Positions 1 through 63,891 of a DNA stretch of 64,000 bases are shown here, in pieces; positions within the stretch are counted from its first letter, which is position 1, and every line of letters starts with the position of its first letter. Source of the DNA: an uncultured Acidobacteriota bacterium. Its GTDB lineage: Bacteria > Acidobacteriota > Thermoanaerobaculia > UBA5066 > DATFVB01. The translations under genes were made by a program, and so were the position numbers. The stretch spans positions 448,001-512,000 of the forward strand of contig CAWEYG010000003.1 in the NCBI GenBank assembly GCA_963813155.1, in the 5' to 3' direction. The notes beneath the pieces were generated by a model, which saw only the letters and a program-made list of their open reading frames with translations, had not been told where the DNA came from and did not search any database.

Positions 1-893
<893 letters not shown>

Positions 894-10657: not shown

Positions 10658-11045
10658 ATGAAAGCAAATCGAAGATCGGGCGGCTCGCACTGAGCACCGC
10701 TGGCCCCTGCACGCCGAGCGCAGAGGACCTGTGCCTGCTCTCCAGCCGCTTCAAAGTTTCGGTGAACTGGATCGATCAGCATTCCGGAGAGCTCTCCGGG
10801 ACCGGCACGACCCTCCCCTCTCCGACGGCAGCGGCTCATTCTGGTTCTTCCGGCCCGATTGGGCCGAGCTCACTGTCAAGCTCATCGACGGGCGAGGCAC
10901 GAACGGGAAATTCTGGTTCTTCTACGGGGCGCTTTCGGATCTGGAGTACACGATCACCGTGACCGACACGACGACCGGAACGGTCCGGACCTACCACAAC
11001 GATCCCGGCAACATCTGCGGCGGTGCGGACACAAAAGCGTTTTAG
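10658..11045 (+). pseudogene. Stand-alone, frameshifted copy of the ~120-aa C-terminal domain also found in the next gene
   Basis: MKA start fused directly to KIGRLAL...CLL..RFKVSV.W...[36 protein letters not shown]...CGGADTKAF. Confidence 0.6.
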
Positions 11046-49751: not shown

Positions 49752-49767
49752 CGGCGGGAGGACGATC

Positions 49768-50473
49768 ATGAACGGATCTCTGCTGGGAACGCTCGCCCTG
49801 GGATTCGTGCTCGGGCTGAAGCACGCTCTCGACGCCGACCATCTCGTGGCCGTTTCCACGATCGTCGGCCGCGAAAAATCCGTCTGGAAGTCGTCGATCG
49901 TCGGGGCGGTCTGGGGCATGGGGCACACGGCTGTCGCTCTTCGTCGCCGCGGTGGGCGTGATCCTCTTGAAGCTGACGATTTCGGCGCGCGCATCCCTGA
50001 CTCTCGAGTTCGGCGTGGGACTCATGCTGATTCTCCTGGGGCTCGATCTTTTGCGCCGCGTCCTGAAGGGAGAGATCTCGATCCACTCCCACACCCACGA
50101 CGGCGAGGAGCGCGAGCACCTTCATCTCCACGCGGGAATCCCGGATCTCCACCGTTCTCACCACGCCGTCGGCAAACGCCCGTTCTTCGTCGGCCTCGTG
50201 CACGGCCTCGCGGGAAGCGCCGCCCTCATGCTCTTCGTTCTGACGACGATCACGAACCCCTGGATCGGCCTCGTCTACGTGCTCATCTTCGGCGCGGGAA
50301 CGATCGGCGGAATGCTCGTGATGTCCGCTGTCATCGGCCTTCCCTTCGCTCTCGCCAACAGGGTGTTCGCCGGCCTCGTCGGAAAGATCCAGTTCGCCGC
50401 GGGACTCGGTTCGCTCGGCTTCGGAATCTTCTACGCCTGGCGGATCGCGGTTCAATTGAAGATCGGTTCCTGA
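49768..50473 (+). CDS. UreH/SodT-like nickel permease; frameshift near 49940
   Basis: GLKHALDADH, WGMGH, HSHTHDGEEREHLHLH, GLVHGLAGSA. Confidence 0.82.
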
Positions 50474-50486
50474 AAGGAGGATCCCC

Positions 50487-51002
50487 ATGCTGCATCCCCG
50501 GTTTCGGCCCCTCGTACTCGCCCTGGTGTTTTTCGCCTCTCTCGCGCCGTTCGCGGCGTCCGGCAGCGGCGGCGCCCGCGGCCTCGGAAGGCCCGAGCCT
50601 CTACAAGCGGCTCGGCGGCTACGACGCCATCGCGGCGGTGACCGACGACTTCCTCGGCCGGCTGCGGGGGTTTCCGGGGTCCGATCCGCGACGACTCGCT
50701 GGTCGCCGACGCCGCTTCCCGGCATCGAGGAGAAGTTCCTGGCGCACGACGACGCACGCGGCGTGACGACCCGCCTCCTGCGCTTCGCTCCCGGCACGCG
50801 CTACCCGAAACACCGGCACGCCGGCACCGAAGAGATCTTCGTCCTGGAGGGCTCCCTGACGATCAACGGACTGCTCCTCTCGGCCGGCGACTACTGCCGC
50901 TCGGAAACGGGCACGGAAGAGGAAGACACGTTCTCGGAAACCGGCGGCATGGCGATCGTGATTTCCTCCGATCGCGACGAGATTCGGGCCGCCGCCCCCT
51001 GA
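50487..51002 (+). pseudogene. Chimera: exported group I truncated hemoglobin N-terminus joined to a ChrR-like cupin
   Basis: SLYKRLGGYDAIAAVTDDFLGRL (one frame) ends abruptly near 50665; then LLRFAPGTRYPKHRHAGTEEIFVLEG. Confidence 0.6.
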
Positions 51003-51023
51003 CCCGCGGCCGACGGACGAAGC

Positions 51024-51621
51024 ATGAAGGAGTCCTCGGGAGAAGCCCGGACCGACGACGCGCGAATCATGCGCCGGATCGCCGCGGGCGAAGGCGACGC
51101 CCTGGGAGACCTCTACGACCTTTACTTCGCCGCGCGTGCTCGGACTCACGACGCGAATTCTCGCGGACCCGGAGGAAGCGCAGGACGTTCTCCAGGACGT
51201 GTTTCTCCACGTCTGGAGGAACCCTTCTCACTACGCCCCCGACCGCGGAAGCCTGCTCACGTGGATCCTGATCCTCGCCAGGAGCCGCGCGATCGACCGT
51301 CTTCGTTCCCTGAGGAGACGAGGCCGCGACCGGCAGGTCGATCTGTCGGAGTGCCAGGTCCCGTCGGCGGAGGACCTCGAGCGGACGGCGGGCCTGCGCC
51401 AGGAGGGGCGGGCGGTTTACCGGGTGCTTTCCGAGCTCCCGCTCGACCAGCGACAGGCCCTGGAGCTCGCGTATTTCGGCGGATACACCCAGACCGAGAT
51501 CGCGACGCTGACGGGGGCTCCCCTGGGCACGGTCAAAACGCGGCTGCGCCAGGGGCTCATGAAACTGCGCGACGGGTATCGGGCGTACTTCAACCGTGAG
51601 GAGCCCTTTGGCGCACACTGA
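51024..51621 (+). CDS. ECF sigma factor (SigK-like); frameshift near 51130
   Basis: AQDVLQDVFLHVW, ARSRAIDRLR, LAYFGGYTQTEIA, PLGTVKTRLRQGL. Confidence 0.88.
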
Positions 51622-52380
51622 GTTTCTGGGCGAGCTGGCGGGGATCAGCCGCGCTCGGAGCCCTCGACGGTTCCGATCGCGACGCGTTCGAAGGCCACCT
51701 TCAGGAGAGGTGCCCGGCGTGCGAGACCGCGCTCGCAGCCTGGCGACGCGACCTCTCCCTCGTCGCGCTCTCGGTTCCGGAGGTCGTCCCTCCCGCAGAG
51801 CTCCGCGCCCGGCTGCTCGAAACGCGCCGGGGGATTCCGGCGTCCGCGCCGCCGAGGAGACCCGCGGCCGCCGTCCGCTGGCTCGCGCTCGCGGCGGCAG
51901 TTCTGCTCGGCTTCCTCGCGATCGACGACGTCGCGCGCCGCCGTTCCGCTCGCGAATCGCAGAAACGCGCCGCGGTCCTGTCCGTACAGCTGGAGCGAAG
52001 CCGCGAGGATCTCGCGCGGAAGGATCTCCGCGCCCGCTTTCTCGAGGACCCCAACGTCCAGACGATCCTCCTTTCGGGCCAGGCCGCCGCGCCGGGCTCC
52101 CGCGGAAAAATCCTGTTCAGCTCCCGGGCGCGCCGGGCGATCCTCGTCGCGGCCAGGGCTTCCGGCGCTTCCGCCGGGCCGGCAATATGAGCTCTGGTTC
52201 ATCGCCGGCGGAAAGCCGATCGCCGCCGGCACCTTCGACCCGTCCGCCCTGGGCGCGACGATTTTCGAATCGACGCCGCTGCCCGAAAGCGCCGCTCCCG
52301 TCGAGAAGTTTGCGGTCACGATCGAGCCGCTCGGAGGCGTACCACAGCCGACGGGAGCGATGGTGCTCCTCGGCGGCTAG
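51609..52380 (+). CDS. Anti-sigma factor (ZAS zinc finger, TM, RskA domain); frameshifted
   Basis: FEGHLQERCPACE, PPAELRARLL, TM helix, YELWFI...AGTF, FAVTIEPLGGVPQPTG. Confidence 0.8.
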
Positions 52381-52412
52381 CGCACTCGAACCCGGCATAT
52401 GATCGCGAGCGA

Positions 52413-53135
52413 ATGGCGGTCGCTCTCGCGCTCCTGACGTTCTTCTCGACGATGGCCGGAGGCATCGTCGGCCGCCGCGCCGGCAAGCAACTCAACGTCT
52501 TTCTCGGCCTCGCGGCGGGAATGTTGCTCGGAGCCGCCCTTTTCGACCTGCTGCCGGAGGGCCTGCAACTCGCGCAGGCGATGGGCCGTCCCCCGGTCTT
52601 CGTCACGGGGTTCGCGGCGGCGGGCTTCCTGGCGTTTCACCTCCTCGAGAAATTTCTCGCCATCCATTCGCACCCCGAGCCCCACTATGGAGAGCCCGGC
52701 CACTCGCACGTGGGAGACCTCGGGGCGCTGGCCGTCACGATTCACTCATTCTTCGACGGCGCTGCGATCGGCGTGGGATTCCAGGTCTCCAACGCGGCCG
52801 GTTTCGCCGTCGCCGGAGCCGTCATCGCGCACGATTTCTCGGACGGCCTCAACACGGCCATGCTTCTCAAGGACTCGACGGACTCCCGGGCCCGCGCCTG
52901 GCTCGTCGCGGACGCCGCCGCCCCCTGTGTGGGAGCGCTGGCAACCCTCCTCTGGCGTTTTCCGCCCGCGCTCCTCGTCCCGGCCCTCGGGATCTTCGGG
53001 GGGTTCTTCCTCTATCTCGGCGCGGCTCACCTGCTTCCGGAAGCGCACCGAAGGAAGACGGGCATTCCGGTTCTCCTCGCGACGATCGGTGGATTCTCGA
53101 TCCTGTTCGTCGTCTCGGCCCTGGTCTCCCCGTAG
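52413..53135 (+). CDS. ZIP family metal transporter
   Basis: AAGMLLGAALFDLLPE, His-rich loop, HSFFDG, AHDFSDG, LLPEAH. Confidence 0.9.
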   Translation: MAVALALLTFFSTMAGGIVGRRAGKQLNVFLGLAAGMLLGAALFDLLPEGLQLAQAMGRPPVFVTGFAAAGFLAFHLLEKFLAIHSHPEPHYGEPGHSHVGDLGALAVTIHSFFDGAAIGVGFQVSNAAGFAVAGAVIAHDFSDGLNTAMLLKDSTDSRARAWLVADAAAPCVGALATLLWRFPPALLVPALGIFGGFFLYLGAAHLLPEAHRRKTGIPVLLATIGGFSILFVVSALVSP

Positions 53136-53299
53136 TGAGTCCGCTCGGGCGAACATGAAGATTTCCCGAAACGCCTCCGCCTCCCCGATTCTGCTAAAAT
53201 TCCGCCCATTGAGCCCCGAGGTTCCCTGAAGTTTCCCGGCTGGAATGGGCCACGAAGGAAATTTCAGAGATCCCCGGAGCCGGAAACGAGGAGGTCTTT

Positions 53300-54466
53300 A
53301 TGGAATCCCGGCCCCGGCACCCCGTCTGCCTTCGGTTCGCGCTTTTTCTCGCTCCCCTTCTTCTGGCTGCCGGCGCGTCCGCCATGCGGGCGAACTTCGA
53401 CTCTTTTTCCCCGCACCGCGCAGCCGCGTCGCTCTCCGGGATCGTCGTTCAAAACGGAGCGCCCGTCGGCGGCGCGATCGTGACCGAAGCGGTCACCGGC
53501 CAGAGCGTCGAGACGGACTCCCGCGGCCGATTCGTTCTGTCCGGCCTTCCGTCCGGTCCCTCGACGCTTTCGGTCGCGACCGGCGAGGCGACATTCGTCG
53601 TTCGATTTCAGAGCTCGCACGGCGGCCGGTCGCGCGGGGTCATCTCCATCGGGGGAATGGGAGTGCCGGGAGGCTCGGCGGCCGTCCTGCTTCCGATTAT
53701 GGCCGGAGGACATGAAGGAGCCGAGATCGAGGGCATCGTCACGGCGAACGACGGCACGACCCTGACCGTCACCGACGAAAGCCTCGGGGCCGTCACGGTC
53801 ACGACGGACGCGAACACGGTCATCCGTCACGGCAACACGATCCTCACCCTGGCCGACGTCACGGTCGGAATGACCGTTCACGCGAAGGCCGCGTTGCAGG
53901 CGGACGGCGTGACTTATCTCGCCGGGGAAATCCTGGTTCAGGACGAGAACAACGGGGACGGCTCGGAAGGGTCCGGCGACAACGAGACCGAGCTCTCCGG
54001 AACGGTCAAGGCCCTCGACTGCGGCGCCGGCACGATGGTCCTTTCGACCGACGGCGGCGACGTGAACGTCACGTTCGACGCGAATACCGCCTTCAAGTCG
54101 AAGGGAAAGGTCGTCACCTGCGGCGACCTGGCGGTCGGCGACGATGCCGAAGTCGATGGCACGCTCCAGGCCGACAGCTCCGTTCTCGCGGCAAAGGTCA
54201 GCTTCGAGGCGCCCGAGACCGAAGGGGTCGAGGTCGAGGGGACCGTCGCGTCGGTCGCCGCTCCGGATTTCGTCGTCACGACCGACTCGGGCGACGTGAC
54301 CGTTCACACGGACGGTTCGACTCAATTCTTTCTCAACGGGCACACTGCGGCGAGCTTTTCCGACGTCGTCGCTGGCGTCAAGGTGAGCGCCGAAGGGGCC
54401 CTGCTCGGCGACGGCAGCGTTCAAGCCTCGAAGGTCCAGATCAACGCCCACGGCGGCGGCCACTAA
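53300..54466 (+). CDS. Exported protein with carboxypeptidase-regulatory-like domain and three DUF5666 (OB-like) repeats
   Basis: Repeats of EIEG.V...V.TD..T....L.VG..V...G.LQ.DG...A..I. Confidence 0.78.
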   Translation: MESRPRHPVCLRFALFLAPLLLAAGASAMRANFDSFSPHRAAASLSGIVVQNGAPVGGAIVTEAVTGQSVETDSRGRFVLSGLPSGPSTLSVATGEATFVVRFQSSHGGRSRGVISIGGMGVPGGSAAVLLPIMAGGHEGAEIEGIVTANDGTTLTVTDESLGAVTVTTDANTVIRHGNTILTLADVTVGMTVHAKAALQADGVTYLAGEILVQDENNGDGSEGSGDNETELSGTVKALDCGAGTMVLSTDGGDVNVTFDANTAFKSKGKVVTCGDLAVGDDAEVDGTLQADSSVLAAKVSFEAPETEGVEVEGTVASVAAPDFVVTTDSGDVTVHTDGSTQFFLNGHTAASFSDVVAGVKVSAEGALLGDGSVQASKVQINAHGGGH

Positions 54467-54546: not shown

Positions 54547-54909
54547 TCAAGTCTTGCCGACCTCACGCGCCCTCAGGAACGCGAGGAACCTCAACAGCTC
54601 CGCCTCCTCTTCCGAAGTCAGGTCCTCAATACGCAGGAGCAGGCCGCCACCACGTCTTGGCACCTCGTGGCCGCCGGATGCCGCGATAACGTAACCGGCC
54701 TTCTCCATCAGCTCCGCGTAGGAAATGGCATAGACCTCGGACAAGCTCCACAGAACGTTGGGCGAAGGCCTGCGGATTCGATCGTGTTCCAGCTGGCTCA
54801 GGTACGAGTTCGAAACTCCCTGCCCGGTCGCCCTCTCGACCCCGCGAAGGGTGAGGCGCCTGACTTTCCTGACGTGGAACAGATAACTGCCAAGGGTCTG
54901 CTCCTTCAT
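54547..54909 (-). CDS. XRE-family HTH transcriptional regulator
   Basis: LTLRGVERAT..VSNSYLSQLE...RPSPNVL...LMEKAGY. Confidence 0.82.
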   Translation of the reverse strand: MKEQTLGSYLFHVRKVRRLTLRGVERATGQGVSNSYLSQLEHDRIRRPSPNVLWSLSEVYAISYAELMEKAGYVIAASGGHEVPRRGGGLLLRIEDLTSEEEAELLRFLAFLRAREVGKT

Positions 54910-54962
54910 TCGCGACTTTCTTGACGAGAACACTCCCGGAGGGTTCGGACCTCCCGGCTGTC

Positions 54963-57400
54963 TCAGAACGTGTACTTCACCCTTGCCGCGAGCGTGCGCG
55001 GGGGAATGACGTGCGTTCCTCCGAACGTCGAGAGCACGTTGTAAACGCCCTTCTTGTCGAACGCGTTTAAGAGATCGGCCTGAAGACTCAACGGTACGCC
55101 GATACCTTGCGAGATCCGCGCCGAGGGAGAAATTCCAGATCGTCCGGGGCTTGATCCGGTTCGGATCGAGGTTCGTGTTCGACGTGAAATTGATGTACGG
55201 ATATGCAAACGCGTTGTCCGGGTCCTGGAGGATCGTCTGATCGGCGCCCGTCACGAGGCCGGAGTCATACCGAACCACTATCCCCGCCCACACGCCGGAT
55301 TTCCCGAAGTCGTAGTTGAGGCCGCTCTGGATCTGGAGATTCTCATCATGATCGATGATGAAGGGTCCGCTGTTAATCGCGTCGAGAGCGCTCGGATCGA
55401 GGAACAAGGCCCGCCGGCCAGAGGCGGAATGTAGATGGCCCGAGTGTGTCCCACCGATGCGTAGCCGCGGAAACCGTCGACCGGTGCGAGATCCAGCCGA
55501 ACGTTCCAGCCGTGGAGCTTGCCGTGTTCGAACGCCAGCGGAAAGACAATCCCCGTGTTCTGAAACTGATCCTGATCCCCGGCGAAGTCCGACGTCTCGC
55601 CGCCAGAAATCGATATCCAACCGAAGGGAAGAGCCTACCTGTTGCTGAAGGCCGACGTCGTAGGCGTTCTGGCGCTCGGAAGGAACGAACAAGAGACCGT
55701 CCCCGAGAGCGCGCGACTGCTGAACGTCGGGTGGGGCAAGCGCGGCGGCCTCCGCCGAGGACGAAAAGAGAATGTTTTCGTACTCCGGTGTTTCGAAAAT
55801 CCTGTTGTACGAGGCACGAAGAACTGTTTTCGTCGATGGAATGTAATAGGACGATCCCCACCCGCGGCTGAAGCTGCGACTCCGTCAGTGGAAAACTGTT
55901 GTGGTCGTAGCGCAGGCCGACCTGAGCCGTGAAGTTCGAGAGGCGAATCGTGTCCTCGACAAATCCCGCGAGGTACGTGATCGTCTTCGACTCGTCGAAC
56001 TGGAAGAACGTTCCGCCGCGCGTCAGGTCGTACGGGGCGAGGTTCGGGTTGTAGGTGTCGGAGCCTGGGTCGTTGAGCGCCGGATCGGTGAGCCCGAAGG
56101 AAAACCGCTCCTGAATCGGGTAGCTCTTGAAGACCGCGCCGAACTTGAGCTCGTTCACGGCTCCGGCCTGGATCGAGAGCGTGGGCTGGACTCCGTAGTT
56201 GTCCAGGGACCGCTTCGAGTTCGTGATGACCGATGGATCGTTCGGGGAGCCGCGGTAAGTGAATCGATTGTTTCGGGCGAAGAGAGTGGTGTCGAGCACG
56301 GCGCTCGAGCCGAAGACATGCTGCCACCCCGCGTTCGCGTTCCAGTCGTTCGTTTCGACCGTGTTGTCGGTATTCGTGGCTTCCTCTGTGAACGTGTTGG
56401 TCACGTCCCGGTTGGTTCTGCCGATCAGGCCCGAGAGCCGGAAGCTGTCGCTGCCCTGGGGCGTCGTGCCGTCGAGACGGAGAAAAGCTCGTTCCGTGTC
56501 GCCGTGGTTGTGAAAGTTGTCGAAGTTGACGGGATCGAGGAAGCGGTCGGACTTCGATGCGTCCACAGATCCGAAATAGCCGAACGTCGAAGTGCCTCCT
56601 CCGACCGACGCGCCCGCATCGTATGTCTTGAACTGTGCTCCCCCCGCATGAACATCGCCGTGCGGCCCGCCAGTCCCGAGGCCGGATTTGGTCGTCAGGT
56701 TGATGACAGCCGCGATCTTCTCGCCGTATTCCGCCGGAACGTTCCCGTAGATGACCTCGGCGGACTGCAGGATTCCGGGATCGATCGAGTTCGAGAACGT
56801 CGTCCCGATCTGGTCCGAGATCGGCTGCCCGTCCACGACGTAGCTCTGCTGGCTGTGCGCGCCCTGAAAGTGATAGCGGCCGTTCTCGTCCTGAGAGAAA
56901 CCGGGAGCCTGAATGATCAGGGATTCCATCCCCCGGGACGGAGAGGCAGCCGGAGCGCGCTGAATCGACGATTTGTCGATGTCGACGTGCGACTGAGAGG
57001 AATCCGTCTCGAGGACGGCCGCCGGCTTTTCCGCCTCGACCTTGACGCTCGCCGAGACCGATTCGAGCTTCAGCGCTACCGGCTGCTCCACCGGGGACGT
57101 GCTCCGAACGTCGATCGCAAGGTGCTGGGTCGCGAAGCCCTGAACCTCGACGTGCAGCTCGTAGGGATTGAAAGGCACGTTGAAGAAAGAGTATCGGCCG
57201 TTGGCATCCGTCACGGCTTGCGCCTTGAACCCGGTGATGTCGTTGCGAAGGATGAGCGGTACGCCGGGCATCGGCTGCCCGTCGGGACCCGTGACGACAC
57301 CCCGCAGCGTGCCCGCAGAAATGGCTGCGTGAAGAGGAATCGCGAATGACCCGAGAGCGACCGTCAGCGTGAAAACGGTGACTAAAATACGAGTGTTCAA
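54963..57400 (-). CDS. TonB-dependent receptor; several frameshifts between 55100 and 55860
   Basis: GGAGGAG RBS plus TTG, signal peptide, CarboxypepD-reg domain, plug GNVPAEYGEK..VINLTTKSG, NAFDK, terminal KYTF. Confidence 0.85.
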
Positions 57401-57491
57401 GAGAACTCCTCCATTAATCCGAAATGGGACGATGCGCTCTCGCGGCGTAAAGTGCCGCGAGGCGATCCCGCGTTCGTGGATTTCGCTTCGG

Positions 57492-57875
57492 TTAGAGGAG
57501 GGTGGGAGGACCGCGAGGGAATGACTCGAGACGGAGACCCTCGACGGGAGGCTGATCGCTCGTCTGAAGGACAGCGTTCGTGGTGGCAAGCACGGGACGC
57601 AGGGGTGCGTGAAGCTGAAGGCCGACGAGGTGCTGACGCAGGCACGCGAGGCACGGCTCGACCTCGACAATCCGATCCTTGTGCCAGTGTGAAGCGGTTG
57701 GCTGGGCGCAGTCGACCTCATGGACCTGCTGGGGCGAGGCCGAGTCGTCCCCATTGAACCCTTCGAGAACGTTCGACGCGTGATGATGAATGGAGGTCCC
57801 GAGTGCCAGCTGCGCTGCCAGCAGGAGCAGCGCCGCGGCGGTCTCCAAAAGACGTGAAAACAGTCTCCGTCTCAT
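57492..57875 (-). CDS. DUF2946/CruR-like leader protein (signal/TM, HHH, CxxC, C-terminal RGPP)
   Basis: LLLLAAQLALGTSIHHH...PCLACL...FPRGPPTLL; directly upstream of a TonB receptor. Confidence 0.78.
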   Translation of the reverse strand: MRRRLFSRLLETAAALLLLAAQLALGTSIHHHASNVLEGFNGDDSASPQQVHEVDCAQPTASHWHKDRIVEVEPCLACLRQHLVGLQLHAPLRPVLATTNAVLQTSDQPPVEGLRLESFPRGPPTLL

Positions 57876-57945
57876 CGGCGTTCACTATATCCCCTCGAGA
57901 CATTCCCCGCCTACGGACTGCGAATTTTGCTATGCTAGCGTGCTC
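57876..57945. promoter_or_regulatory. Back-to-back promoters, probably giving leaderless or near-leaderless mRNAs
   Basis: Minus strand TATAGT (57889-57884) 8 nt before ATG 57875; plus strand TGnTATGCT (57928-57936) 9 nt before ATG 57946; no SD for either ORF. Confidence 0.5.
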
Positions 57946-58272
57946 ATGAACGCATCCGCTCGAACCGGGAAAGCCTTTGCGCTCCTTGCCGCAACCCTTT
58001 TCCTGCTCGTCGTGGCTTCGTTCCATTCGGCCGCGGACAACGATCTCGGCCGTATCAATCCGGGGCATCGAGTAGCGCTCTTTTCGAGCGCCTCCCCGGC
58101 CGACACCTGCGCGGCCTGCACGCTCGACGGAATCTTGAGTGCGCGGCTCTCGCTGACCGTTCCCGTCGTCCCGCCGCAGGCAGTCGAGATCGTCACCCCG
58201 TCCATTCCCTCCGCACCCTTCGTTTCTCCCCGGGCTTCCGTCGAGAGCCGCCCCCCTCCGTCGATCGCCTGA
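57946..58272 (+). CDS. DUF2946/CutF-like leader protein (signal/TM, CxxC, C-terminal RPPP)
   Basis: FALLAATLFLLVVASFH...DTCAACTL...Pro-rich...ESRPPPSIA; directly upstream of tolC-like gene. Confidence 0.72.
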   Translation: MNASARTGKAFALLAATLFLLVVASFHSAADNDLGRINPGHRVALFSSASPADTCAACTLDGILSARLSLTVPVVPPQAVEIVTPSIPSAPFVSPRASVESRPPPSIA

Positions 58273-58321
58273 CGATTTTCCCCCGCGTCCTATTCGTTCT
58301 CGGATCGAGAGGAGGTTGGTT

Positions 58322-59604
58322 TTGCGATCGGGTTACATCCCGAGATTTTCATGGATTTTTCTGGCGATCTCGTCGGCTACCAGCATCGCCGCCGCACAGG
58401 AGGCGGTCCGCCTCACCCGTGCGCAGGCGCTCGCCGAGGCGCTCGCGAAAAATCCGCAGCTCGGGGCGATCCGGGCGCAGGTGGACGAAGCCCGGGCGGG
58501 AATCGCGCAGACGACGGCGTTTCCCGACCCGTCGTTCGCCTTCACCTCCGAACAGCAGAAAAGCCTCGGGAACCTGCGGTCGGCCCAGTCCCGCGACGTG
58601 GGCGCCAGTTTCACGATTCCCTTCCCCGATAAGTTCCGCCTGAATCGCCGGATCTCCGAGGCGGCCCTGCGGGCGGCGGAGTTCTCACTGACGCAGACCC
58701 AGCAGCAGATCGCGTCGGATACCGAAGCCGCCTTCGACGCGGTCCTGGTCGCCGAAGCCCAGCTCGAAAACGACACGGCATCGGAACATCTTTCGGAGGA
58801 CATCGTCCGGAAGACGCAGGCTCGTTACGACGCCGGCACCGTGGCCCGTCTCGATGTGCTCCAGGCCCGGGTCAACTTCTCCCAGGCGAGGAATCAGACG
58901 ATCGCCGATGACCGCGCGCTCATGACGGCCCGAGCATCCTTCGCCCGCGCGCTCGGCCTCCCGTCGGGAACCATTGTCGAGCCCGCCGAGAAGCTCGACG
59001 TGCCGCCGGCTCCGCCGGACCTCGGCGCGCTGGTCAAGATCGCGGAGGATCATCGTCCGGAACTGGCTTCCGCTGTTGCCCTGCGCGAAGGCGCCCGCTT
59101 CGCGGTCACGCTCGCAAAGGAGTTCTGGTTTCCGGACCTGAACATTTCGCTGTTCCGAAACTTCACGGCCGGGGCTCCGGCGGCGTATTCGACGGCCGGG
59201 AGCTTCGCCGTTCCGCTTTTCTTCTGGCAACACGAAAAGGGAGACGTTGCCGCCGCCGAAGCGAAACAGGTGGAGCTCGCGGCCGACGAAAGCGTCACCC
59301 GGGCGCAGGTGGATCTCGAAGTCCGCACCGCCTACGCGTCCGCCGACACCGCGCGCCGTCAGGCCCTCTGGATCCGCGACGAACTTACTCCCCCAGGCGC
59401 GCGAAGAGTACGAGGTGGCGTCGAAGAGCTACGCGCTCGGCGGATCCTCGGCCCTCGATCTCATCAACGCCAAGACGGCCCTGCTCGGCGGCCCAGACCC
59501 AGTACGTCCAGGCCCTCGGAGCGGTCAACGACGCGCAGGCGCAGCTCGAGCTGGCGGTCGGCGCCCCTTTGCCTCCCGCCTTCAACCGAAGGAGCTCCTC
59601 ATGA
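58322..59604 (+). CDS. TolC/CzcC family outer-membrane factor; frameshifts near 59390 and 59490
   Basis: LTRAQALAEALAKNP, RYDAGTVARLDVLQA, SYALGGSSALDLINA. Confidence 0.88.
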
Positions 59605-60758
59605 ACCCTGACCCGCTCCGAATTGCGCGCGCCGTCTTGATCGCGACGAGTGCTCTCCTCCTCTGTTCGGCGTGCTCGTCCAAGCGCCAGGACGGTGGCT
59701 CTCCCGCGACTTCCAGCGACGCGCCTTCGGGCCTCCGCCTTTCCGCGGACCAACGTCAGAAGGTCACGGTCGCGGAAGTCCGGGCCACGACCTTCCGCCG
59801 CACTCTCGAGACGACCGGAACCGTGACCTTCGACCAAAACGCCTCCACTCAGGTGATCGCGGGAATATCGGGCCCGGTTTCCCGCATCCTCGTTCCCCTG
59901 GGGGAGAACGTCGCGGCCGGACAGCCGCTGGCGGAGGTGACTTCGCCCGATTTCGCGTCCTCTCTCTCGGGCTACCGAAAGGCGGTCGCGACCGCCGGGA
60001 ACCTCCGGCGAATCGCCGATCTCGACCAGAAACTCTTCGACGCCGGAGGAATCCCGCGCCGTGACCTTCAACAGGCGGAGACCGATGCGCTGACCGCGGA
60101 GGCGGACCGAGACTCAGCGCTTGCCCAACTCCACTCGATCGGGATTCCCGACGCCGCGATTCACACGCTCCAGCAGGGAAAGGCCGTTACGGAAGTCAAG
60201 GCGGTCATCCGCGCTCCCATCGCAGGCACGGTCGTCGAAAAGCTCATCTCGCCCGGGCAACTTGTGGCCGCGGGAACGACGCCCTGCTTCACCGTTGCGA
60301 ATCTCTCGACGGTCTGGATCCTCGCCAACGTTTTCGAGAAGGACATTCCCTTTGTCGACCGAGGAGACCCGGCCGACATATCAACGGGCCTGGGAACCAC
60401 GCTTCCGGGCCGGGTCGACTACATTTCGGCCCTCGTGGATCCCTCGACTCGAGCGATCTCCGTCCGCATCGTCGCGCAGAATCCGCGAGGAGCTCTTCGG
60501 AAGGATCTGTACGTCAGCGTCGCAATTCACTCGAGCCGCGACATCCGCGGACTCCTCGTGCCGGCTTCGTCCATCCTTCGGAACGACGAAAACCTGCCGT
60601 TTGTTTTCGCCGAGCAGCCTGACGGTTCGTTCGGGCGCCGACGGGTCGAAATTGCGAACCGAATCGGCGATGCCTACCAGATTGCCTCGGGCCTGCGCGA
60701 GGGCGAACGAATCATCGTGGAGGGCGGACTGTTTCTCCAGTTTGCCGAGAGCCAGTGA
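59601..60758 (+). CDS. CzcB/CusB-like RND periplasmic adaptor (lipoprotein)
   Basis: LCSAC lipobox, IRAPIAGTV, VDPSTR, SGLREGERIIVEG. Confidence 0.9.
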   Translation: MNPDPLRIARAVLIATSALLLCSACSSKRQDGGSPATSSDAPSGLRLSADQRQKVTVAEVRATTFRRTLETTGTVTFDQNASTQVIAGISGPVSRILVPLGENVAAGQPLAEVTSPDFASSLSGYRKAVATAGNLRRIADLDQKLFDAGGIPRRDLQQAETDALTAEADRDSALAQLHSIGIPDAAIHTLQQGKAVTEVKAVIRAPIAGTVVEKLISPGQLVAAGTTPCFTVANLSTVWILANVFEKDIPFVDRGDPADISTGLGTTLPGRVDYISALVDPSTRAISVRIVAQNPRGALRKDLYVSVAIHSSRDIRGLLVPASSILRNDENLPFVFAEQPDGSFGRRRVEIANRIGDAYQIASGLREGERIIVEGGLFLQFAESQ

Positions 60759-60806
60759 GCGAATCCTCTCACCCGCCGCCCGGGGACCGAGCCCAGAAAG
60801 GGCTCG

Positions 60807-63800
60807 GTGATCAACCGGGTCGTTTCTTCGGCCCTGCGGCAGCCCTTCCTGGTAGTCCTCCTCGCGGTCATGCTCGTCGGAGCAGGCATCTGGTCCTTCT
60901 CGCGGCTTCCGGTCGACGCCTACCCCGACCTTTCGCCGCCGATGGTCGAGATCGTCACACAGTGGCCGGGCAAGGCCGCCGAAGAGGTCGAGCGGCTCAT
61001 CACGGTTCCGGTCGAGGTGGAGATGAACGGGATACCTCGGATGACGGCCATTCGCTCCATCTCGCTCTACGGCCTCTCCGACGTCCGGCTCACGTTCGAG
61101 GACCGCACCGACAGCTATTTTGCCCGCCAGCGGGTGTTCGAACGAATCCCGGATCTCGCGCTGCCGGACGGAGTGGCTCCTTCCGTCGCTCCGCTCTTCT
61201 CCCCTTCCGGACTCATCTATCGGTACGTGCTCGACAGTCCGGACCGCTCTCCGATGGAGCTCAAGACGATCGAAGACTGGATCGTCGAACGCCAATTCAA
61301 ATCGGTACCCGGCGTGGCGGACGATTCCGGGTTCGGTGGCCAGACGATGCAGTACCAGGTGGTACTGGACCCAGCGAAAATCGCCGGCGCCGGCCTCTCC
61401 GTTCCCGCGGTCGTCGCGGCCCTCGCCGCGAATAATGGGAACGCCGGAGGCGGGTTTTACTCGCAGGGCGGCCAGTTCTATTACGTCCGCGGCCTCGGCC
61501 GACTTCAGACACCGGACGACATCGGCGACGTCGTGCTCACGGTTCACAACGGCGTGCCCGTGCTCGTCAAGGACGTCGCGCGCGTGGAGATCGGCCACGC
61601 GCCAAGGCTCGGCGAGTTCGGCTACGAGAAACGTGACGACGCCGTCGAAGGCGTGATGCTGATGCGCAAGGGGGAACAGGCGCAGGTCGTCTTGCGATCC
61701 ATTGAAGAGAAAACCAAAGAACTCAACCGCTCGATTCTTCCGAAAGACGTGAAAATCCATCCCTACTACGACAGAAGCGACCTGATCGCGCTCACGACGC
61801 GAACGGTCGAGGACAACCTGCTTCGGGGAATGGTTCTCGTCGTGATCATCCTGATCTTTTTTCTGTACGACATCCGCACGGGGATGGTCGTCGCGATCAC
61901 CATCCCGCTCGCGCTGCTTTTTTGCTTTCATCTGCCTCGACTTGCAGCACGTCCCCGCGAACCTCCTCTCGATCGGGGCGATCGACTTTGGAATCCTCGT
62001 CGATGGAGCGGTCGTGATGGTGGAGAACATCTACCGGCAGGTCGCACTTCGCGGGAACGCTCCATTTCGAATCCGTGAAGTGATCGCGGACGCGGCGGCG
62101 GAAGTGGACCGCCCCATCTTCTACGCCGTCGCGGTGATCGTCGCCGGCTTCCTTCCGATCTACGTGTTGTCCGGACCATCGGGGTTGCTCTTCAAGCCGA
62201 TGGCAGACACGATGATTTTCGCTTTGCTCGGCGCCCTGGTGCTGACCCTCACGCTGATTCCCGTTCTCTGCTCCTGGGCGCTTCGCAAAGGCGTTCGCGA
62301 GCGCCAGAATCGCCCGTTCGAATGGGTCAAAGGCATGTATGCCCGGGGACTCGACGGGTGTCTCGCCCATCCCTGGGCGACGACGGGGTTATCGGCCGCG
62401 ATCCTCGGGAGTCTCCCTTCTGTCTGATTCCCGCGATCGGAGCCGAGTTCATGCCCCACCTCGACGAAGGGGCGATCTGGGTCCGCGCGACCATGCCCTA
62501 CACGATCTCCTTCGAAGAGGCGGCCAAGGTCTCGCCTCAGGTCCGCGACATCCTTCGCTCGTTCCCTCAGGTCACCGTGGTCGCATCCGAGCTCGGCCGG
62601 CCGGACGACGGCACCGATCCGACCGGGTTTCTTCAACGACGAGTTCTACGTCGGCTTGAAGCCTTATCGTGAATGGACGGGGCCCTACCGGACGAAACAG
62701 CAGTTGATCGCGGCAATCGACAAGAAGCTGAAGGTTTTCCCGGGAATCATCTTCAACTATACGCAACCCGCCGAGGACGCCGTCGACGAGGCGGAGACCG
62801 GACTGAAGAGCGCGCTCGCAGTGAAGGTCTTCGGCCCCGATCTCTCCACTCTGGAATCGAAAGGGAAAGAGATCAAACGGGTGTTGGAGGGCGTCCACGG
62901 TATCGGCGGGCTCAGCCTCGTGCAGGAGCTCGGCCAGCCCAGCCTGACCGTGACGATCGATCGCGGCCAAATCGCCCGCTACGGCGTGAACGTCGCCGAC
63001 GTCAACGGCCTGATCGAGGCCGCAGTCGGCGGAACGGTGGCCACGCAGGTCGTTCAGGGGGAAGAGCTGTTCGACCTGGTGGTCCGCCTCGAGCCGAGGT
63101 TCCGGGAGAGCGCCGACGAGATCGGAAACATCCTGGTCGCGACACCGGGCGGTGCGCAGATCCCGCTCAAAGAGCTCGCGGACATCCGGATCGTCAACGG
63201 CGCCTCGTTCATCTATCGCGAGGACAACTCGCGCTACATCGGAGTCCAGTATTCCGTCGCCGGCCGGGACCTCGCCGGAGCGGTCGAGGATGCTCAACGA
63301 CAGATCGCGGCGAAGGTCAGGCTGCCCGAAGGCTACCGGATCGTCTGGGGGGGTGAATACAAGGAATACACCTCGTCGCGACGACAACTCAGGTTCGTCC
63401 TCCCGCTGACGCTGTTCCTCATCTTTCTGCTCCTTTTCGCCCTGTACAGCAACTTCAAGTTCCCCGTGATCACGGTGTCGCGGTCATCCTGTCCTCGCCG
63501 GTCGGCGGGCTCGTCGGCCCTATGGATCACCGGAACGCCGTTCTCCGTCTCCTCCGGAATCGGGTTTCTCGCGCTCTTCGGGGTCTCGGTGCAGACCGCC
63601 GTCATCTACATCTCGTATGCGAACGAGCTGCGGCGCGATTCCGGGCTGGGTATTCGCGAAGCAACGAGGGAGGCGGCGCTCCTCCGGCTGCGGCCGATCA
63701 TGATGACGGCCCTCGTGGCGGCCTTCGGATTGCTTCCGGCCGCTCTTTCAACAGGCATCGGCTCCGACTCCCAGCGACCGTTTGCCCTCGTCATTGTCGG

Positions 63801-63891
63801 CGGTCTCTTTTCCCGGCTTCTGATCAGCGTCTTCCTGATGCCCGCCCTCTATTCGATCGTCGCCCGGCCGGGAGACCGGCTCGAGGTCTGA
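60807..63891 (+). CDS. CzcA/CusA family heavy-metal RND transporter; several frameshifts
   Basis: LPVDAYPDL, EVERLITVPVE, SIGAIDFGILVDGAVVMVEN, EFMPHLDEG, RLRPIMMTALVA, QRPFALVIVGG. Confidence 0.92.

What the first reader, a model, noticed from the sequence alone, without database searches (positions are those of the whole stretch)
57400..58322. Back-to-back pair of CxxC + RxPP arrest-type leaders: one gates a TonB importer, the other an RND exporter
Seen: two small divergent ORFs 70 bp apart. Each has an N-terminal signal/TM segment followed by His, a central CxxC (CLAC; CAAC) and a C-terminal R-x-P-P a few codons before the stop (RGPP; RPPP). The left one precedes a TonB-dependent receptor. 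The right one precedes a TolC-MFP-CzcA/CusA operon. Known: DUF2946 proteins CruR (Bordetella, upstream of a TonB transporter) and CutF (Rhodobacter, upstream of cutO) are cis-acting copper-responsive leaders with Cys motifs and Pro-rich/RAPP ends; RAPP and RGPP are ribosome-arrest motifs (ApdA/ApdP, SecM RAGP). Inference: a compact bidirectional switch in which nascent-chain metal sensing during export sets uptake and efflux, possibly reciprocally. No metalloregulator or two-component system is adjacent to the efflux operon. I know of no description of such a paired arrangement.
Basis: partly seen in the sequence, partly recalled or inferred. Interest (0 to 1): 0.88.

Follow-up and report, generated by a model that had tools for sequence, protein, structure and literature searches.

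The report
Back-to-back metal-sensing arrest-leader ORFs
Two small, real, back-to-back genes look like distant relatives of the known CruR/CutF "stalling leader" peptides, one placed in front of an outer-membrane importer and the other in front of a heavy-metal efflux pump, so each half is a known kind of switch and only the side-by-side arrangement is unusual.

Summary
Left ORF 57492-57875 (-), 127 aa, and right ORF 57946-58272 (+), 108 aa, start 70 bp apart. Each has an N-terminal hydrophobic segment followed by His, a CxxC, and RGPP or RPPP three residues before the stop.

Both are conserved genes. I found 4 homologues of the left ORF and 29 of the right. CxxC and RxPP are invariant or nearly so, and the CxxC-to-R spacing is fixed at 42 (left) and 43 (right).

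Pfam's DUF2946 model misses both. Profile-profile comparison with acidobacterial DUF2946 proteins links them (96% and 85% probability; column shuffles score far lower).

The right ORF always precedes an OEP-MFP-CzcA operon (15 of 15 loci). The left always precedes a TonB-receptor-like gene (4 of 4).

Leaders of this type upstream of RND pumps and TonB receptors are already published (Roy 2022; Ozturk 2023).

The pair is not a conserved unit. It occurs in 3 of 14 right-type loci, and the left module also occurs alone.

RNA evidence for a structure shielding the ribosome-binding site is suggestive only. Stalling and reciprocal control are untested.

Verdict: new members of a known kind, in an arrangement useful for experiments.

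The parts
57492..57875 (-). Left leader ORF, 127 aa: export signal, HHH, C56, HWH, CLAC, 42-residue spacer, RGPP, TLL, stop
   Evidence: 4 homologues keep all motifs. hhalign against acidobacterial DUF2946 gives 96.1% probability, E 3e-9, and column shuffles reach at most 17.7 against 52.1.
57504..57515 (-). RGPP codons (CGC GGU CCU CCC), the presumed arrest point of the left leader
   Evidence: RGPP is present in 5 of 5 family members.
57401..57491 (-). 91-nt spacer between the left leader and the receptor gene. It holds a G+C-rich hairpin (about 57435-57464) and the SD GGAGGAG (57406-57412), which is predicted to pair with the pyrimidine-rich last codons of the leader.
   Evidence: Fold z-scores are -3.6 and -3.8, with 0 of 200 shuffles as stable. 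Relatives also have a central hairpin and SD pairing in their MFE folds, but z is significant in only 1 of 3.
54966..57400 (-). TonB-dependent-receptor-like outer-membrane protein gene (CarboxypepD_reg + Plug-like), interrupted by at least 2 frameshifts in this assembly
   Evidence: The intact 810-aa orthologues are in L009 and L052. Plug scores 22.5-22.8 bits, below the cut-off of 23.9. It aligns with a bona fide TBDR at E 8e-13.
57876..57945 (.). 70-bp divergent control region with two -10-like elements: TATAGT (57884-57889, - strand), 8 nt before the left ATG, and TGCTATGCT (57928-57936, + strand), 9 nt before the right ATG. Neither ORF has an SD.
   Evidence: An equivalent element lies 7-10 nt before the start in 13 of 13 right-type loci and 7-8 nt before it in 4 of 4 left-type loci. 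The consensus scan found no sigma-70 match in the window.
57946..58272 (+). Right leader ORF, 108 aa: export signal, SFHSAADNDL, CAAC, 43-residue spacer, invariant PFV.PRASV.S, RPPP, SIA, stop
   Evidence: hhalign against acidobacterial DUF2946 gives 85.3% probability, E 6e-6, and column shuffles reach at most 15.5 against 35.0. Distant representatives end in RAPP, RGPP or RPPP.
58249..58260 (+). RPPP codons (CGC CCC CCU CCG), the presumed arrest or pause point of the right leader
   Evidence: RPPP in 29 of 30 and RSPP in 1 of 30. The CCU codon makes up 16 of 47 Pro codons in this motif over 14 loci (my hand count from the sequences printed), against 12 of 142 in neighbouring genes.
58262..58330 (+). 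Predicted hairpin. The 5' arm is the last leader codons plus the stop (58262-58274). The 3' arm runs from the end of the SD through the TTG start and two further codons of the OEP gene (58314-58330). The SD AGGAGG is at 58310-58315 and the start at 58322.
   Evidence: 92.9% of cells pair over 14 loci, against 22-50% in slid registers. One pair covaries: U-A in 5, C-G in 7, broken in 2. However, the SD-opening energy is no higher than in shuffles.
58322..63891 (+). Efflux operon: OEP (58322 to about 59580), HlyD/CzcB-type adaptor (59601-60758) and CusA/CzcA-family RND pump (60807-63891, carrying DFGILVDGAVVMVEN). OEP and the pump are frameshifted in this assembly.
   Evidence: The G080 orthologue scores 899.8 bits on TIGR00914. 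Contigs from public runs lack one base at 59382, 59487 and 61916.

Best explanation
Both small ORFs are divergent members of the DUF2946 / CruR / CutF class of exported, cis-acting metal-sensing leader peptides. They are probably translated from leaderless mRNAs.

Proposed mechanism:
1. The N-terminal signal directs the nascent chain to the Sec translocon.
2. When the ribosome reaches R-x-P-P (RGPP left, RPPP right), peptide-bond formation slows or stops.
3. At that moment the CxxC, with the nearby His and Asp residues, lies exactly 42-43 residues back. That is just outside the ribosomal tunnel, at the translocon.
4. Metal binding there changes how long the ribosome stays at R-x-P-P.
5. The paused ribosome covers the last codons and the stop codon, which otherwise pair with the SD/start region of the next gene. 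Pause length therefore sets translation of the downstream gene and, through ribosome-free RNA, possibly transcription read-through.

The left leader gates a TonB-receptor-like importer. The right leader gates a CzcCBA-type divalent-cation efflux pump.

Shown here: gene reality, motif and spacing conservation, remote homology, strict linkage to the downstream genes, and complementarity of the leader 3' end to the downstream initiation region.

Inferred by analogy: stalling, metal dependence, direction of the response, cis action, and which metal is sensed. I favour Zn, Co, Ni or Cd over Cu because of the pump signature and a ZIP transporter nearby.
For: Both are real genes.
- The left ORF has 4 homologues at 55-73% identity by BLASTP (50-73% in the alignment).
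- The right has 29 homologues at 50-83% and 9 cluster representatives among 1.84 billion proteins.

Architecture matches the published family definition (Roy 2022, PMC9426467, passages read):
- CXXC and C-terminal RAPP three residues before the end, with 45 residues between them.
- The spacing is conserved to within 1-2 residues, and more than 95% of members have an export signal.
- Here the spacing is 42 in 5 of 5 and 43 in 37 of 37, and tails are 2-3 residues in 34 of 35 family members.
- Acidobacterial DUF2946 proteins show a spacing of 44 in 9 of 15 extracted and end in RAPP or RGPP.

Remote homology:
- hhalign of A1 against A3 gives 96.1% probability (E 3e-9) and A2 against A3 gives 85.3% (E 6e-6).
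- 60 column shuffles score at most 17.7 and 15.5, against 52.1 and 35.0.
- Distant relatives of the right family carry canonical RAPP (3), RGPP (1) or RPPP (3).

Linkage: right ORF followed by OEP in 15 of 15 loci, with spacers of 43-51 nt. Left ORF followed by the receptor in 4 of 4 loci, with spacers of 82-91 nt.

Arrest competence from the literature (PMC12992588):
- RGPP gives the most stable arrest and tolerates varied upstream context.
- The A-to-P variant is partially permissive in ApdA and keeps low reporter activity in ApdP.
- This fits the data here. The RGPP family has variable residues before the motif, while the RPPP family has an invariant 11-residue PFV.PRASV.S segment.

RNA:
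- A register-specific helix joins the leader tail and stop codon to the SD/start region. 92.9% of cells pair, against 22-50% in slid registers.
- The left spacer fold has z -3.6 to -3.8.

Precedent: CutF-like ORFs most often precede OEP/RND genes and then TonB-like genes (Ozturk 2023). In Caulobacter, DUF2946 gene CC2720 heads czrCBA (PMC4176598).
Against: - Pfam's DUF2946 model does not recognise either ORF. The left scores 8.1 bits, E 5.8, against a cut-off of 23.7. The right has no hit. NCBIfam finds nothing.
- The two families are not detectably related to each other (hhalign 5% probability; BLASTP E 0.3).
- The A3 reference alignment holds 4 proteins over the Pfam cut-off and 6 just under it.
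- The thermodynamic test is negative. The energy needed to open the SD is no higher than with dinucleotide-shuffled upstream sequence in 14 of 14 right-type loci (z -0.5 to 1.2) and in 2-3 of 4 left-type loci. Any C-rich leader tail would pair with GGAGG.
- RNAalifold prefers a different pairing from my helix, so the exact structure is ambiguous.
- Covariation rests on one pair (Fisher p 0.02, sequences not independent).
- Residues are conserved along the whole protein, not only at the C-terminus. This would also fit a stable protein.
- No stalling, metal response or cis action was or could be tested here.
- In this assembly the regulated genes are frameshifted.
Confidence: 0.68

Rival explanations
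1. The two ORFs encode stable exported or membrane-anchored metal-binding proteins. These would act in trans as periplasmic metal sensors, chaperones or regulators, in the manner proposed for CzcI or CopL. The R-x-P-P end would be a structural or interaction motif rather than an arrest site.
For: Conservation extends over the whole length, including SFHSAADNDL next to the membrane segment (right) and HHH, C56 and PTASHWH (left). Ozturk 2023 notes that CutF-like proteins are not iso-functional and that CzcI, upstream of czcCBA, is thought to be a metal-sensing regulator. SD sequestration is not above the shuffle background.
Against: The exact CxxC-to-R spacing (42 or 43 in all 42 sequences) and the 2-3 residue tail are hard to explain for a folded protein but are expected for a tunnel/translocon ruler, as shown experimentally for CruR. 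RGPP is the most avoided tetrapeptide in bacterial proteomes. CzcI lacks the C-terminal proline motif. The middle third of the right family is poorly conserved.
Confidence: 0.15
2. The same leaders act mainly on transcription. Release of the ribosome exposes C-rich, ribosome-free RNA. Rho, or the G+C-rich spacer hairpin, then terminates before the downstream gene, as shown for CruR-bfrG. Unmasking of the SD would not be the main effect.
For: CruR works through Rho-dependent termination in the spacer. The right spacers are C-rich and G-poor (sequences). All four left spacers carry a strong central hairpin whose sequence differs between loci. The SD-opening test is not significant.
Against: The spacers are short (43-51 and 82-91 nt, against 162 nt in B. 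pertussis). The left hairpins are not followed by a U tract, and the only terminator-like sites found in 57300-58400 lie elsewhere, at 57977-57994 inside the right ORF and 58328-58343 just inside the OEP gene. The register-specific helix to the start codon region is conserved. This rival is a variant of the best explanation and both effects could coexist.
Confidence: 0.25
3. The leaders provide plain translational coupling with no regulated arrest. Any ribosome finishing the small ORF opens the downstream initiation region, giving constitutive co-expression. Metal control would be exerted elsewhere, for example by the ECF sigma/anti-sigma pair or at the promoters.
For: The leader tail and stop codon pair with the downstream start region, which a terminating ribosome would also melt. 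An ECF sigma and RskA-type anti-sigma lie upstream in G080. A conserved promoter directly precedes the right ORF.
Against: This does not explain the invariant CxxC, the fixed spacing, the R-x-P-P motif or the export signal.
Confidence: 0.08
4. The ORFs are chance open frames in G+C-rich DNA.
For: Many spurious ORFs overlap this region.
Against: Protein-level conservation at 50-83% identity across 33 homologues from many contigs, with invariant motifs and conserved position.
Confidence: 0.01

Closest known systems
CruR (Bp2923) of Bordetella pertussis, DUF2946 upstream ORF of the TonB-dependent transporter gene bfrG (Roy et al. 2022, PMC9426467)
   Same: - Exported small protein with CXXC.
- A fixed spacer, then R-x-P-P three residues before the stop.
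- First gene, directly upstream of a TonB-dependent receptor.
The left ORF matches this layout, with RGPP in place of RAPP and 42 intervening residues in place of 45.
   Different: - Below Pfam's DUF2946 threshold.
- Much richer in His (HHH, HWH).
- Spacer to the next gene of 82-91 nt against 162 nt.
- Acidobacteriota rather than Proteobacteria.
- The receptor has an N-terminal CarboxypepD_reg domain.
- Metal and mechanism are untested here.
CutF of Rhodobacter capsulatus, leader of cutO (Ozturk et al. 2023, 10.1101/2022.11.11.516240; 2025 preprint 10.1101/2025.02.05.636593)
   Same: - Exported Cys-motif leader ending in a PPP run two to three residues before the stop (CutF GPPPRL; here SRPPPSIA).
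- Short spacer whose stem-loop is proposed to shield the next gene's ribosome-binding site.
- The downstream gene detoxifies metal.
- CutF-like ORFs are reported most often upstream of OEP/RND genes.
   Different: - CxxC rather than CxxxC.
- An Arg precedes the prolines, so the motif is also RAPP-like.
- The downstream operon is a divalent-cation RND pump rather than a multicopper oxidase.
- The shielding structure is not statistically supported here.
RAPP-type ribosome arrest peptides ApdA, ApdP and SecM (Sakiyama 2021, listing only; Morici 2024, listing only; PMC12992588, passages read)
   Same: C-terminal R-[A/G]-P-P core close to the stop, an N-terminal localisation signal, and a position upstream of the regulated gene.
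   Different: Those peptides monitor the Sec/YidC machinery. These carry a metal-binding CxxC at a fixed distance and head metal transport genes.
CzcI of Cupriavidus metallidurans and CC2720 of Caulobacter crescentus, small ORFs heading czc-type RND operons (as cited; PMC4176598)
   Same: A small exported ORF immediately upstream of a czcCBA-like divalent-cation efflux operon.
   Different: CzcI lacks the C-terminal proline motif (Ozturk 2023). I did not compare sequences with either protein.

Membership tests
Pfam DUF2946 (PF11162) / CruR-CutF-like leaders | Score at or above the Pfam gathering threshold (23.7 bits) | tested here: not met
   The left ORF scores 8.1 bits, E 5.8, over profile positions 25-117. 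The right ORF has no hit at E up to 10. A six-frame search of the window's own genome finds nothing over the cut-off.
Pfam DUF2946 (PF11162) / CruR-CutF-like leaders | Detectable homology to accepted members | tested here: met
   hhalign against 10 acidobacterial proteins (4 over and 6 just under the cut-off) gives 96.1% probability for the left and 85.3% for the right. Scores of 52.1 and 35.0 compare with maxima of 17.7 and 15.5 in 60 column shuffles. The protein-atlas lead named one DUF2946-bearing cluster, with 12% of members carrying the family.
Pfam DUF2946 (PF11162) / CruR-CutF-like leaders | N-terminal export signal (signal peptide or N-in/C-out anchor) | tested here: inconclusive
   Read from the sequence only. 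Both ORFs have a basic N-terminus followed by an uncharged hydrophobic stretch of about 15-20 residues. My crude filter flagged the left ORF only. No signal-peptide predictor was available.
Pfam DUF2946 (PF11162) / CruR-CutF-like leaders | Conserved CXXC | tested here: met
   CLAC in 5 of 5. CAAC, CPAC, CSAC or CTAC in 30 of 30.
Pfam DUF2946 (PF11162) / CruR-CutF-like leaders | RAPP-like motif a few residues before the C-terminus | tested here: met
   RGPP in 5 of 5. RPPP in 29 of 30 and RSPP in 1 of 30. Tails are 2-3 residues in 34 of 35, with one left homologue at 8. Distant representatives carry RAPP (3), RGPP (1) and RPPP (3).
Pfam DUF2946 (PF11162) / CruR-CutF-like leaders | Fixed CXXC-to-RAPP spacing (45 in CruR, conserved within 1-2 residues) | tested here: met
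   Spacing is constant within each family: 42 in 5 of 5 and 43 in 37 of 37. The absolute value is 2-3 shorter than in CruR and 1-2 shorter than the 44 seen in 9 of 15 acidobacterial proteins.
Pfam DUF2946 (PF11162) / CruR-CutF-like leaders | First gene of an operon for metal transport or homeostasis | tested here: met
   Right ORF followed by OEP-MFP-CzcA in 15 of 15 loci. Left ORF followed by the TonB-receptor-like gene in 4 of 4. Promoter-like elements lie directly upstream of both.
Pfam DUF2946 (PF11162) / CruR-CutF-like leaders | Cis-acting, metal-dependent control of the downstream gene | not testable with these tools
   This needs reporter genetics.
RAPP-type ribosome arrest peptides | Demonstrated elongation arrest with the third residue's codon in the P site and Pro in the A site | not testable with these tools
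   Only the motif is present. Published mutagenesis supports RGPP fully and RPPP partially.
CutF-type SD-shielding stem-loop | A stable structure that sequesters the downstream ribosome-binding site and is covered or melted by the paused ribosome | tested here: inconclusive
   A register-specific helix is conserved, with 92.9% of cells paired and one covarying pair. The left window fold has z -3.6. The SD-opening energy is not above shuffles in 14 of 14 right-type loci and is above them clearly only in L052 on the left. RNAalifold proposes another pairing.
HME-RND pumps of the CzcA type (HME1/HME2, divalent cations) | TIGR00914 over its cut-off, and the DFGX3DGAX3VEN motif in TM helix IV | tested here: met
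   The G080 orthologue scores 899.8 bits against a cut-off of 701.45. The window reads IDFGILVDGAVVMVEN. The meaning of the motif is taken from PMC3637150.
TonB-dependent receptors | Plug domain and 22-strand barrel recognised by Pfam | tested here: inconclusive
   Plug scores 22.5-22.8 bits, below the cut-off of 23.9, and there is no barrel hit. There is no PDB sequence match. BLASTP to a bona fide CarboxypepD_reg-Plug-barrel receptor gives E 8e-13 over the N-terminal 300 residues and 2e-6 in the barrel.

The most novel reading that the evidence does not exclude
The 70-bp region holds two back-to-back, leaderless promoters whose upstream halves overlap. Each launches a nascent-chain metal sensor of opposite polarity. 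The RGPP leader would be arrested by default and released by metal, like CruR, switching the importer off. The RPPP leader would be read through by default with the help of EF-P and stalled by metal, like CutF, switching the efflux pump on. One locus would then set uptake and efflux of a divalent metal (Zn, Co, Ni or Cd) reciprocally, without any protein regulator. This would extend a mechanism so far shown only for copper.
Probability: 0.2. Interest if true: 0.75.

Novelty: new member of a known kind. Interest (0 to 1): 0.4.

Why it matters
- The locus extends the CruR/CutF leader class to two narrow Acidobacteriota (Thermoanaerobaculia) families that Pfam's DUF2946 model does not detect. Surveys based on that model therefore undercount the class.
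- The pump signature, and a ZIP transporter two genes upstream of the right leader, suggest the principle may also serve divalent metals and not only copper.
- The two published prototypes respond to metal in opposite directions for reasons that are not understood. This locus places an RGPP leader before an importer and an RPPP leader before an exporter, 70 bp apart. The exact 42/43-residue rulers make it a compact natural test case for what decides the sign of the response.
- It is not a new kind of system. Both single arrangements are in print.

Tried and rejected
1. Pfam and NCBIfam scans of both ORFs gave no usable hit.

2. Direct relatedness of the two ORFs was rejected: BLASTP E 0.3 and hhalign 5% probability.

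3. Paralogues of the right ORF in the own genome: none. A motif scan did find a third CxxC-43-RGPP ORF.

4. The profile search of 1.84 billion representatives with A2 gave only 9 proteins and did not reach canonical DUF2946.

5. The sigma-70 consensus scan found 0 promoters in 57300-58400. The promoter proposal therefore rests on cross-locus conservation only.

6. The SD-shielding test against shuffled upstream sequence was not significant for the right family. I therefore do not claim a proven stem-loop.

7. RNAalifold on four left-type spacers gave a weak consensus of -7 kcal/mol.

8. A PDB sequence search with the receptor gave no match.

9. Sequencing runs: no RNA holder is listed, so nothing can be said about expression. 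Contigs from three soil-metagenome DNA runs were laid only to examine the frameshift sites.

10. I considered structure or complex prediction and did not run it. No claim here depends on a fold.

11. The idea that the pair is an ancestral unit was rejected by synteny.

12. The supplements of Roy 2022 (Table S1) and Ozturk 2023 (File S1, Figs S5-S7) could not be seen. They may already list acidobacterial members or divergent pairs. My statement that the paired importer/exporter arrangement is not described rests only on searches and on the passages and sections I read.

Full report
**The observation**

The window holds two divergent small ORFs.
- The left ORF is 57492-57875 (-), 127 aa.
- The right ORF is 57946-58272 (+), 108 aa.

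The mechanical right ORF starts at 57790. The 29 homologues are 107-111 aa, apart from one 86-aa protein that lacks an internal stretch, and they begin at the position of ATG 57946. The two starts are 70 bp apart.

The left protein reads as follows:
- a basic N-terminus and a hydrophobic stretch;
- HHH, C56, HWH and CLAC;
- 42 residues, then RGPP, TLL and stop.

The right protein reads as follows:
- a hydrophobic stretch, then SFHSAADNDL and CAAC;
- 43 residues ending in PFVSPRASVES, then RPPP, SIA and stop.

**Are they genes?**

Yes.

The left ORF has 4 homologues at 55-73% identity by BLASTP (50-73% in the alignment). They keep HHH, C56, PTASHWH, PCLACL.QHL and RGPP in 5 of 5 sequences.

The right ORF has 29 homologues (50-83% identity).
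- SFHS, D.C.AC.LDG and PRAS..SR.PP are invariant.
- RPPP occurs in 29 of 30 and RSPP in 1 of 30.

A profile search of 1.84 billion cluster representatives found only 9 proteins, so the right family is small. Its most distant members keep SFH..DND and CPAC, and they end in RAPP (3), RGPP (1) or RPPP (3).

The CxxC-to-Arg distance is exactly 43 in all 37 right-type sequences and exactly 42 in all 5 left-type sequences.

In a class-wide sample, the right ORF was found in 5 of 301 genomes. All five are in the window's own family, including the window's own genome. One of them, G104, is unpublished. Named records are Thermoanaerobaculia / Acidobacteriota MAGs.

**Relation to DUF2946**

Pfam's model fails. 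The left ORF scores 8.1 bits (E 5.8) against a cut-off of 23.7. The right ORF has no hit.

I collected DUF2946 matches from 401 Acidobacteriota genomes. Seven genomes have a match over the cut-off. The proteins extracted from them and from near-threshold matches share these features:
- a membrane segment and an H.H motif;
- CxxC;
- a spacer of 44 residues in 9 of 15 (43-49 overall);
- RAPP or RGPP with a short tail.

An alignment of 10 of them (4 over and 6 just under the cut-off) matches the left family at 96.1% probability (E 3e-9, 110 columns). It matches the right family at 85.3% (E 6e-6, 64 columns from CxxC to RxPP). In my re-run, the scores of 52.1 and 35.0 compare with maxima of 17.7 and 15.5 over 60 column shuffles. 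The reversed alignment gives 13.2 and 16.9.

The two window families are not detectably related to each other.

I therefore treat both as remote, sub-threshold relatives that share the full architecture of the class as defined by Roy et al. 2022. That definition comprises an export signal, CXXC, RAPP three residues from the end, spacing conserved within 1-2 residues, and first position in the operon.

**Surroundings**

The left ORF is followed after 91 nt by a receptor gene.
- It starts at TTG 57400, behind GGAGGAG.
- It carries CarboxypepD_reg and a Plug-like region just under Pfam's cut-off.
- It resembles a bona fide TonB-dependent receptor.

The right ORF is followed after 49 nt by three genes:
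- OEP (TTG 58322, behind AGGAGG);
- a CzcB-type adaptor (59601-60758);
- a CusA/CzcA-family pump.

The pump reads DFGILVDGAVVMVEN. That is the DFGX3DGAX3VEN signature attributed to divalent-cation HME1/HME2 pumps (PMC3637150).

Further along the locus:
- Upstream lie a ZIP transporter (52413-53135) and a DUF5666 protein (53300-54466).
- An XRE-type HTH gene (54547-54900) follows the receptor.
- In the relative G080, an ECF sigma and an RskA-type anti-sigma precede the ZIP gene.

In this assembly the receptor, OEP and pump genes are broken by frameshifts next to homopolymers. The orthologues are intact in relatives: the pump and OEP in four relatives, and the receptor in L009 and L052. Contigs from public soil runs lack one base at 59382 (X3 only), at 59487 (X2 and X3) and at 61916 (all three runs). 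Assembly error is therefore the likelier cause.

**Is the pair a unit?**

No.

All 15 right-type loci carry the OEP gene downstream. Of the 14 with visible upstream DNA:
- 3 have the divergent left ORF and receptor (the window, G080 and the MAG contig L050);
- 10 have the DUF5666 gene directly upstream on the same strand;
- 1 (G104) has the ZIP gene upstream.

All 4 left-type loci carry the receptor downstream. One of them, L052, has no right ORF or pump nearby.

The receptor module therefore looks like a cassette inserted between the DUF5666 gene and the right leader.

A motif scan of the other fetched loci found another back-to-back pair in a different Acidobacteriota family (G341, L053).
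- The two RGPP ORFs there are 56 bp apart, and each heads a bona fide TonB receptor.
- The same locus holds two further such ORFs.

The window's own genome has a third CLAC-43-RGPP ORF, on contig C22.

**Promoters**

In 13 of 13 right-type loci, a TG[C/G]TA...T element lies 7-10 nt before the start codon. In 9 of them a TTGAAT-like hexamer lies about 16 nt upstream of its TA...T hexamer. It is missing or unclear in the window, L050, L010 and L043. No SD is present.

In 4 of 4 left-type loci, TATAGT, TACACT or TATCCT lies 7-8 nt before the ATG.

I infer leaderless transcripts. In the window the two -10 elements are 57884-57889 (-) and 57928-57936 (+), so the upstream halves of the two promoters overlap. 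The generic consensus scan found nothing.

**RNA level**

In the right family, the last leader codons plus the stop (58262-58274) can pair with the end of the SD, the TTG start and the next two codons (58314-58330).
- Over 14 distinct loci, 92.9% of cells pair, against 22-50% when the register is slid.
- One pair covaries: U-A in 5, C-G in 7, broken in 2. Fisher p is 0.02 and the sequences are related.
- The Pro codons of RPPP use CCU in 16 of 47 cases, by my hand count from the sequences printed. Neighbouring genes use it in 12 of 142. CCU creates CCUCC, which is complementary to the SD.

Two results count against a specific structure.
- RNAalifold prefers another pairing of the same regions.
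- The energy needed to free the SD is no greater than with shuffled upstream sequence in all 14 loci.

In the left family, the MFE folds pair the SD with pyrimidine-rich codons within about 5 codons of RGPP in 4 of 4 loci, and each spacer has a central G+C-rich hairpin.
- Fold z-scores are significant in the window (-3.6 to -3.8) and in L052 (-2.85), but not in L050 or L051.
- The SD-opening test is clear only for L052, with 0 of 100 shuffles reaching it. The window has 6 of 100.

I call the shielding structure suggestive, not shown.

**Mechanism proposed**

By homology and anatomy, both ORFs are nascent-chain metal sensors. The steps are:
1. The chain is exported.
2. Elongation pauses or arrests at R-x-P-P.
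3. The CxxC, with neighbouring His and Asp, sits 42-43 residues back. That places it near the exit of the tunnel and the translocon.
4. Metal occupancy changes pause duration.
5. The ribosome's position over the leader's 3' end decides whether the next gene's initiation region is open, and whether ribosome-free RNA invites termination.

The literature gives two prototypes of opposite sign.
- CruR has RAPP, heads a TonB transporter, and copper relieves its arrest. EF-P plays no role.
- CutF has PPP, heads a detoxifying enzyme, and copper induces stalling that EF-P otherwise resolves.

The window's left leader resembles the first and the right leader the second.

Published mutagenesis shows that RGPP gives the most stable arrest and needs little upstream context. 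RPPP is partially permissive. This fits the variable context before RGPP in the left family and the invariant 11-residue segment before RPPP in the right family.

The sign of each response, the metal, cis action and stalling itself are inferences.

**Comparison and novelty**

Both single arrangements are published.
- CutF-like ORFs most often precede OEP/RND genes and then TonB-like genes.
- RAPP/RGPP small ORFs are enriched upstream of TonB receptors across Gram-negative phyla.
- In Caulobacter, a DUF2946 gene heads czrCBA.

What is new here:
- two narrow, sub-threshold families in Thermoanaerobaculia;
- the likely divalent-metal context;
- the apparent leaderless expression;
- the importer/exporter back-to-back placement in 3 loci.

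I did not find the paired arrangement in the text I read. The supplements were closed and may bear on this.

**Verdict**

- Novelty: new members of a known kind.
- Interest is moderate (0.40), mainly as a compact natural test case for what sets the polarity of these leaders.

Noticed in passing
Own genome contig C22, about 6554-6940 (-); locus L054: A third leader-like ORF in the same genome. It has a hydrophobic N-terminus, HRH, CLAC, 43 residues, RGPP, SASV and stop. No ATG, GTG or TTG lies upstream of the membrane segment in frame. It sits directly upstream of a 318-aa secreted protein with no Pfam family.
   Followed up: partly
Window 55104, 55853-55857, 59382, 59487, 61916, about 62400-62422 and about 62750: The receptor, OEP and RND genes change frame next to short homopolymers. 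Contigs of public soil runs lack one base at several of these places: X3 only at 59382, X2 and X3 at 59487, and all three runs at 61916. Orthologues in relatives are intact. These are probably assembly indels rather than pseudogenes.
   Followed up: partly
Window 57884-57889 (-) and 57928-57936 (+); same element in loci L007-L010, L041-L048, L050-L052: Conserved -10-like elements lie 7-10 nt before the start codons of both leaders, with no SD. In 9 of 13 right-type loci a TTGAAT-like -35 lies about 16 nt upstream. This suggests leaderless mRNAs. In the DUF5666-type loci a strong terminator hairpin with a T run lies just upstream of the -35.
   Followed up: partly
L053 (G341:C1:1276000-1292000): 6880-about 7180 (-), 7311-7628 (-), 7685-8143 (+), 10798-11163 (+): Another Acidobacteriota lineage has four CxxC...RGPP/RAPP ORFs in one locus. 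Two in tandem precede one TonB receptor. One, divergent and 56 bp away, precedes a second TonB receptor. One precedes what looks like an ABC transporter ATPase (read from the translation; not scanned). Back-to-back leader pairs are therefore not unique to the window's lineage.
   Followed up: partly
Window 54547-54900 (-): A 117-aa XRE-type HTH gene (HTH_3, 29.5 bits) lies directly after the receptor gene. No such gene lies between the receptor and the DUF5666 gene in G080.
   Followed up: no
Window 49234-54466; L009 1-4700: The flank looks like a metal island. It holds a weak NicO-like hit (20.1 bits, below the cut-off), a ZIP transporter, and a DUF5666 + CarboxypepD_reg secreted protein. In G080 there is also an ECF sigma with an RskA-type anti-sigma. 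The orthologous window ORFs 51024-52402 gave no Pfam hit.
   Followed up: partly
Run X3, 11,000-base contig laid on window 54960-62789: In that contig about 3.05 kb separates the receptor 5' region from the right leader, against 0.58 kb in the window. A relative therefore carries extra DNA between the two modules. I could not fetch it.
   Followed up: no
L015 (G596:C1), 112-273 (+) and 1549-1710 (+): Two CxxC...RGPP ORFs lie on the same strand about 1.4 kb apart in another Acidobacteriota genome.
   Followed up: no
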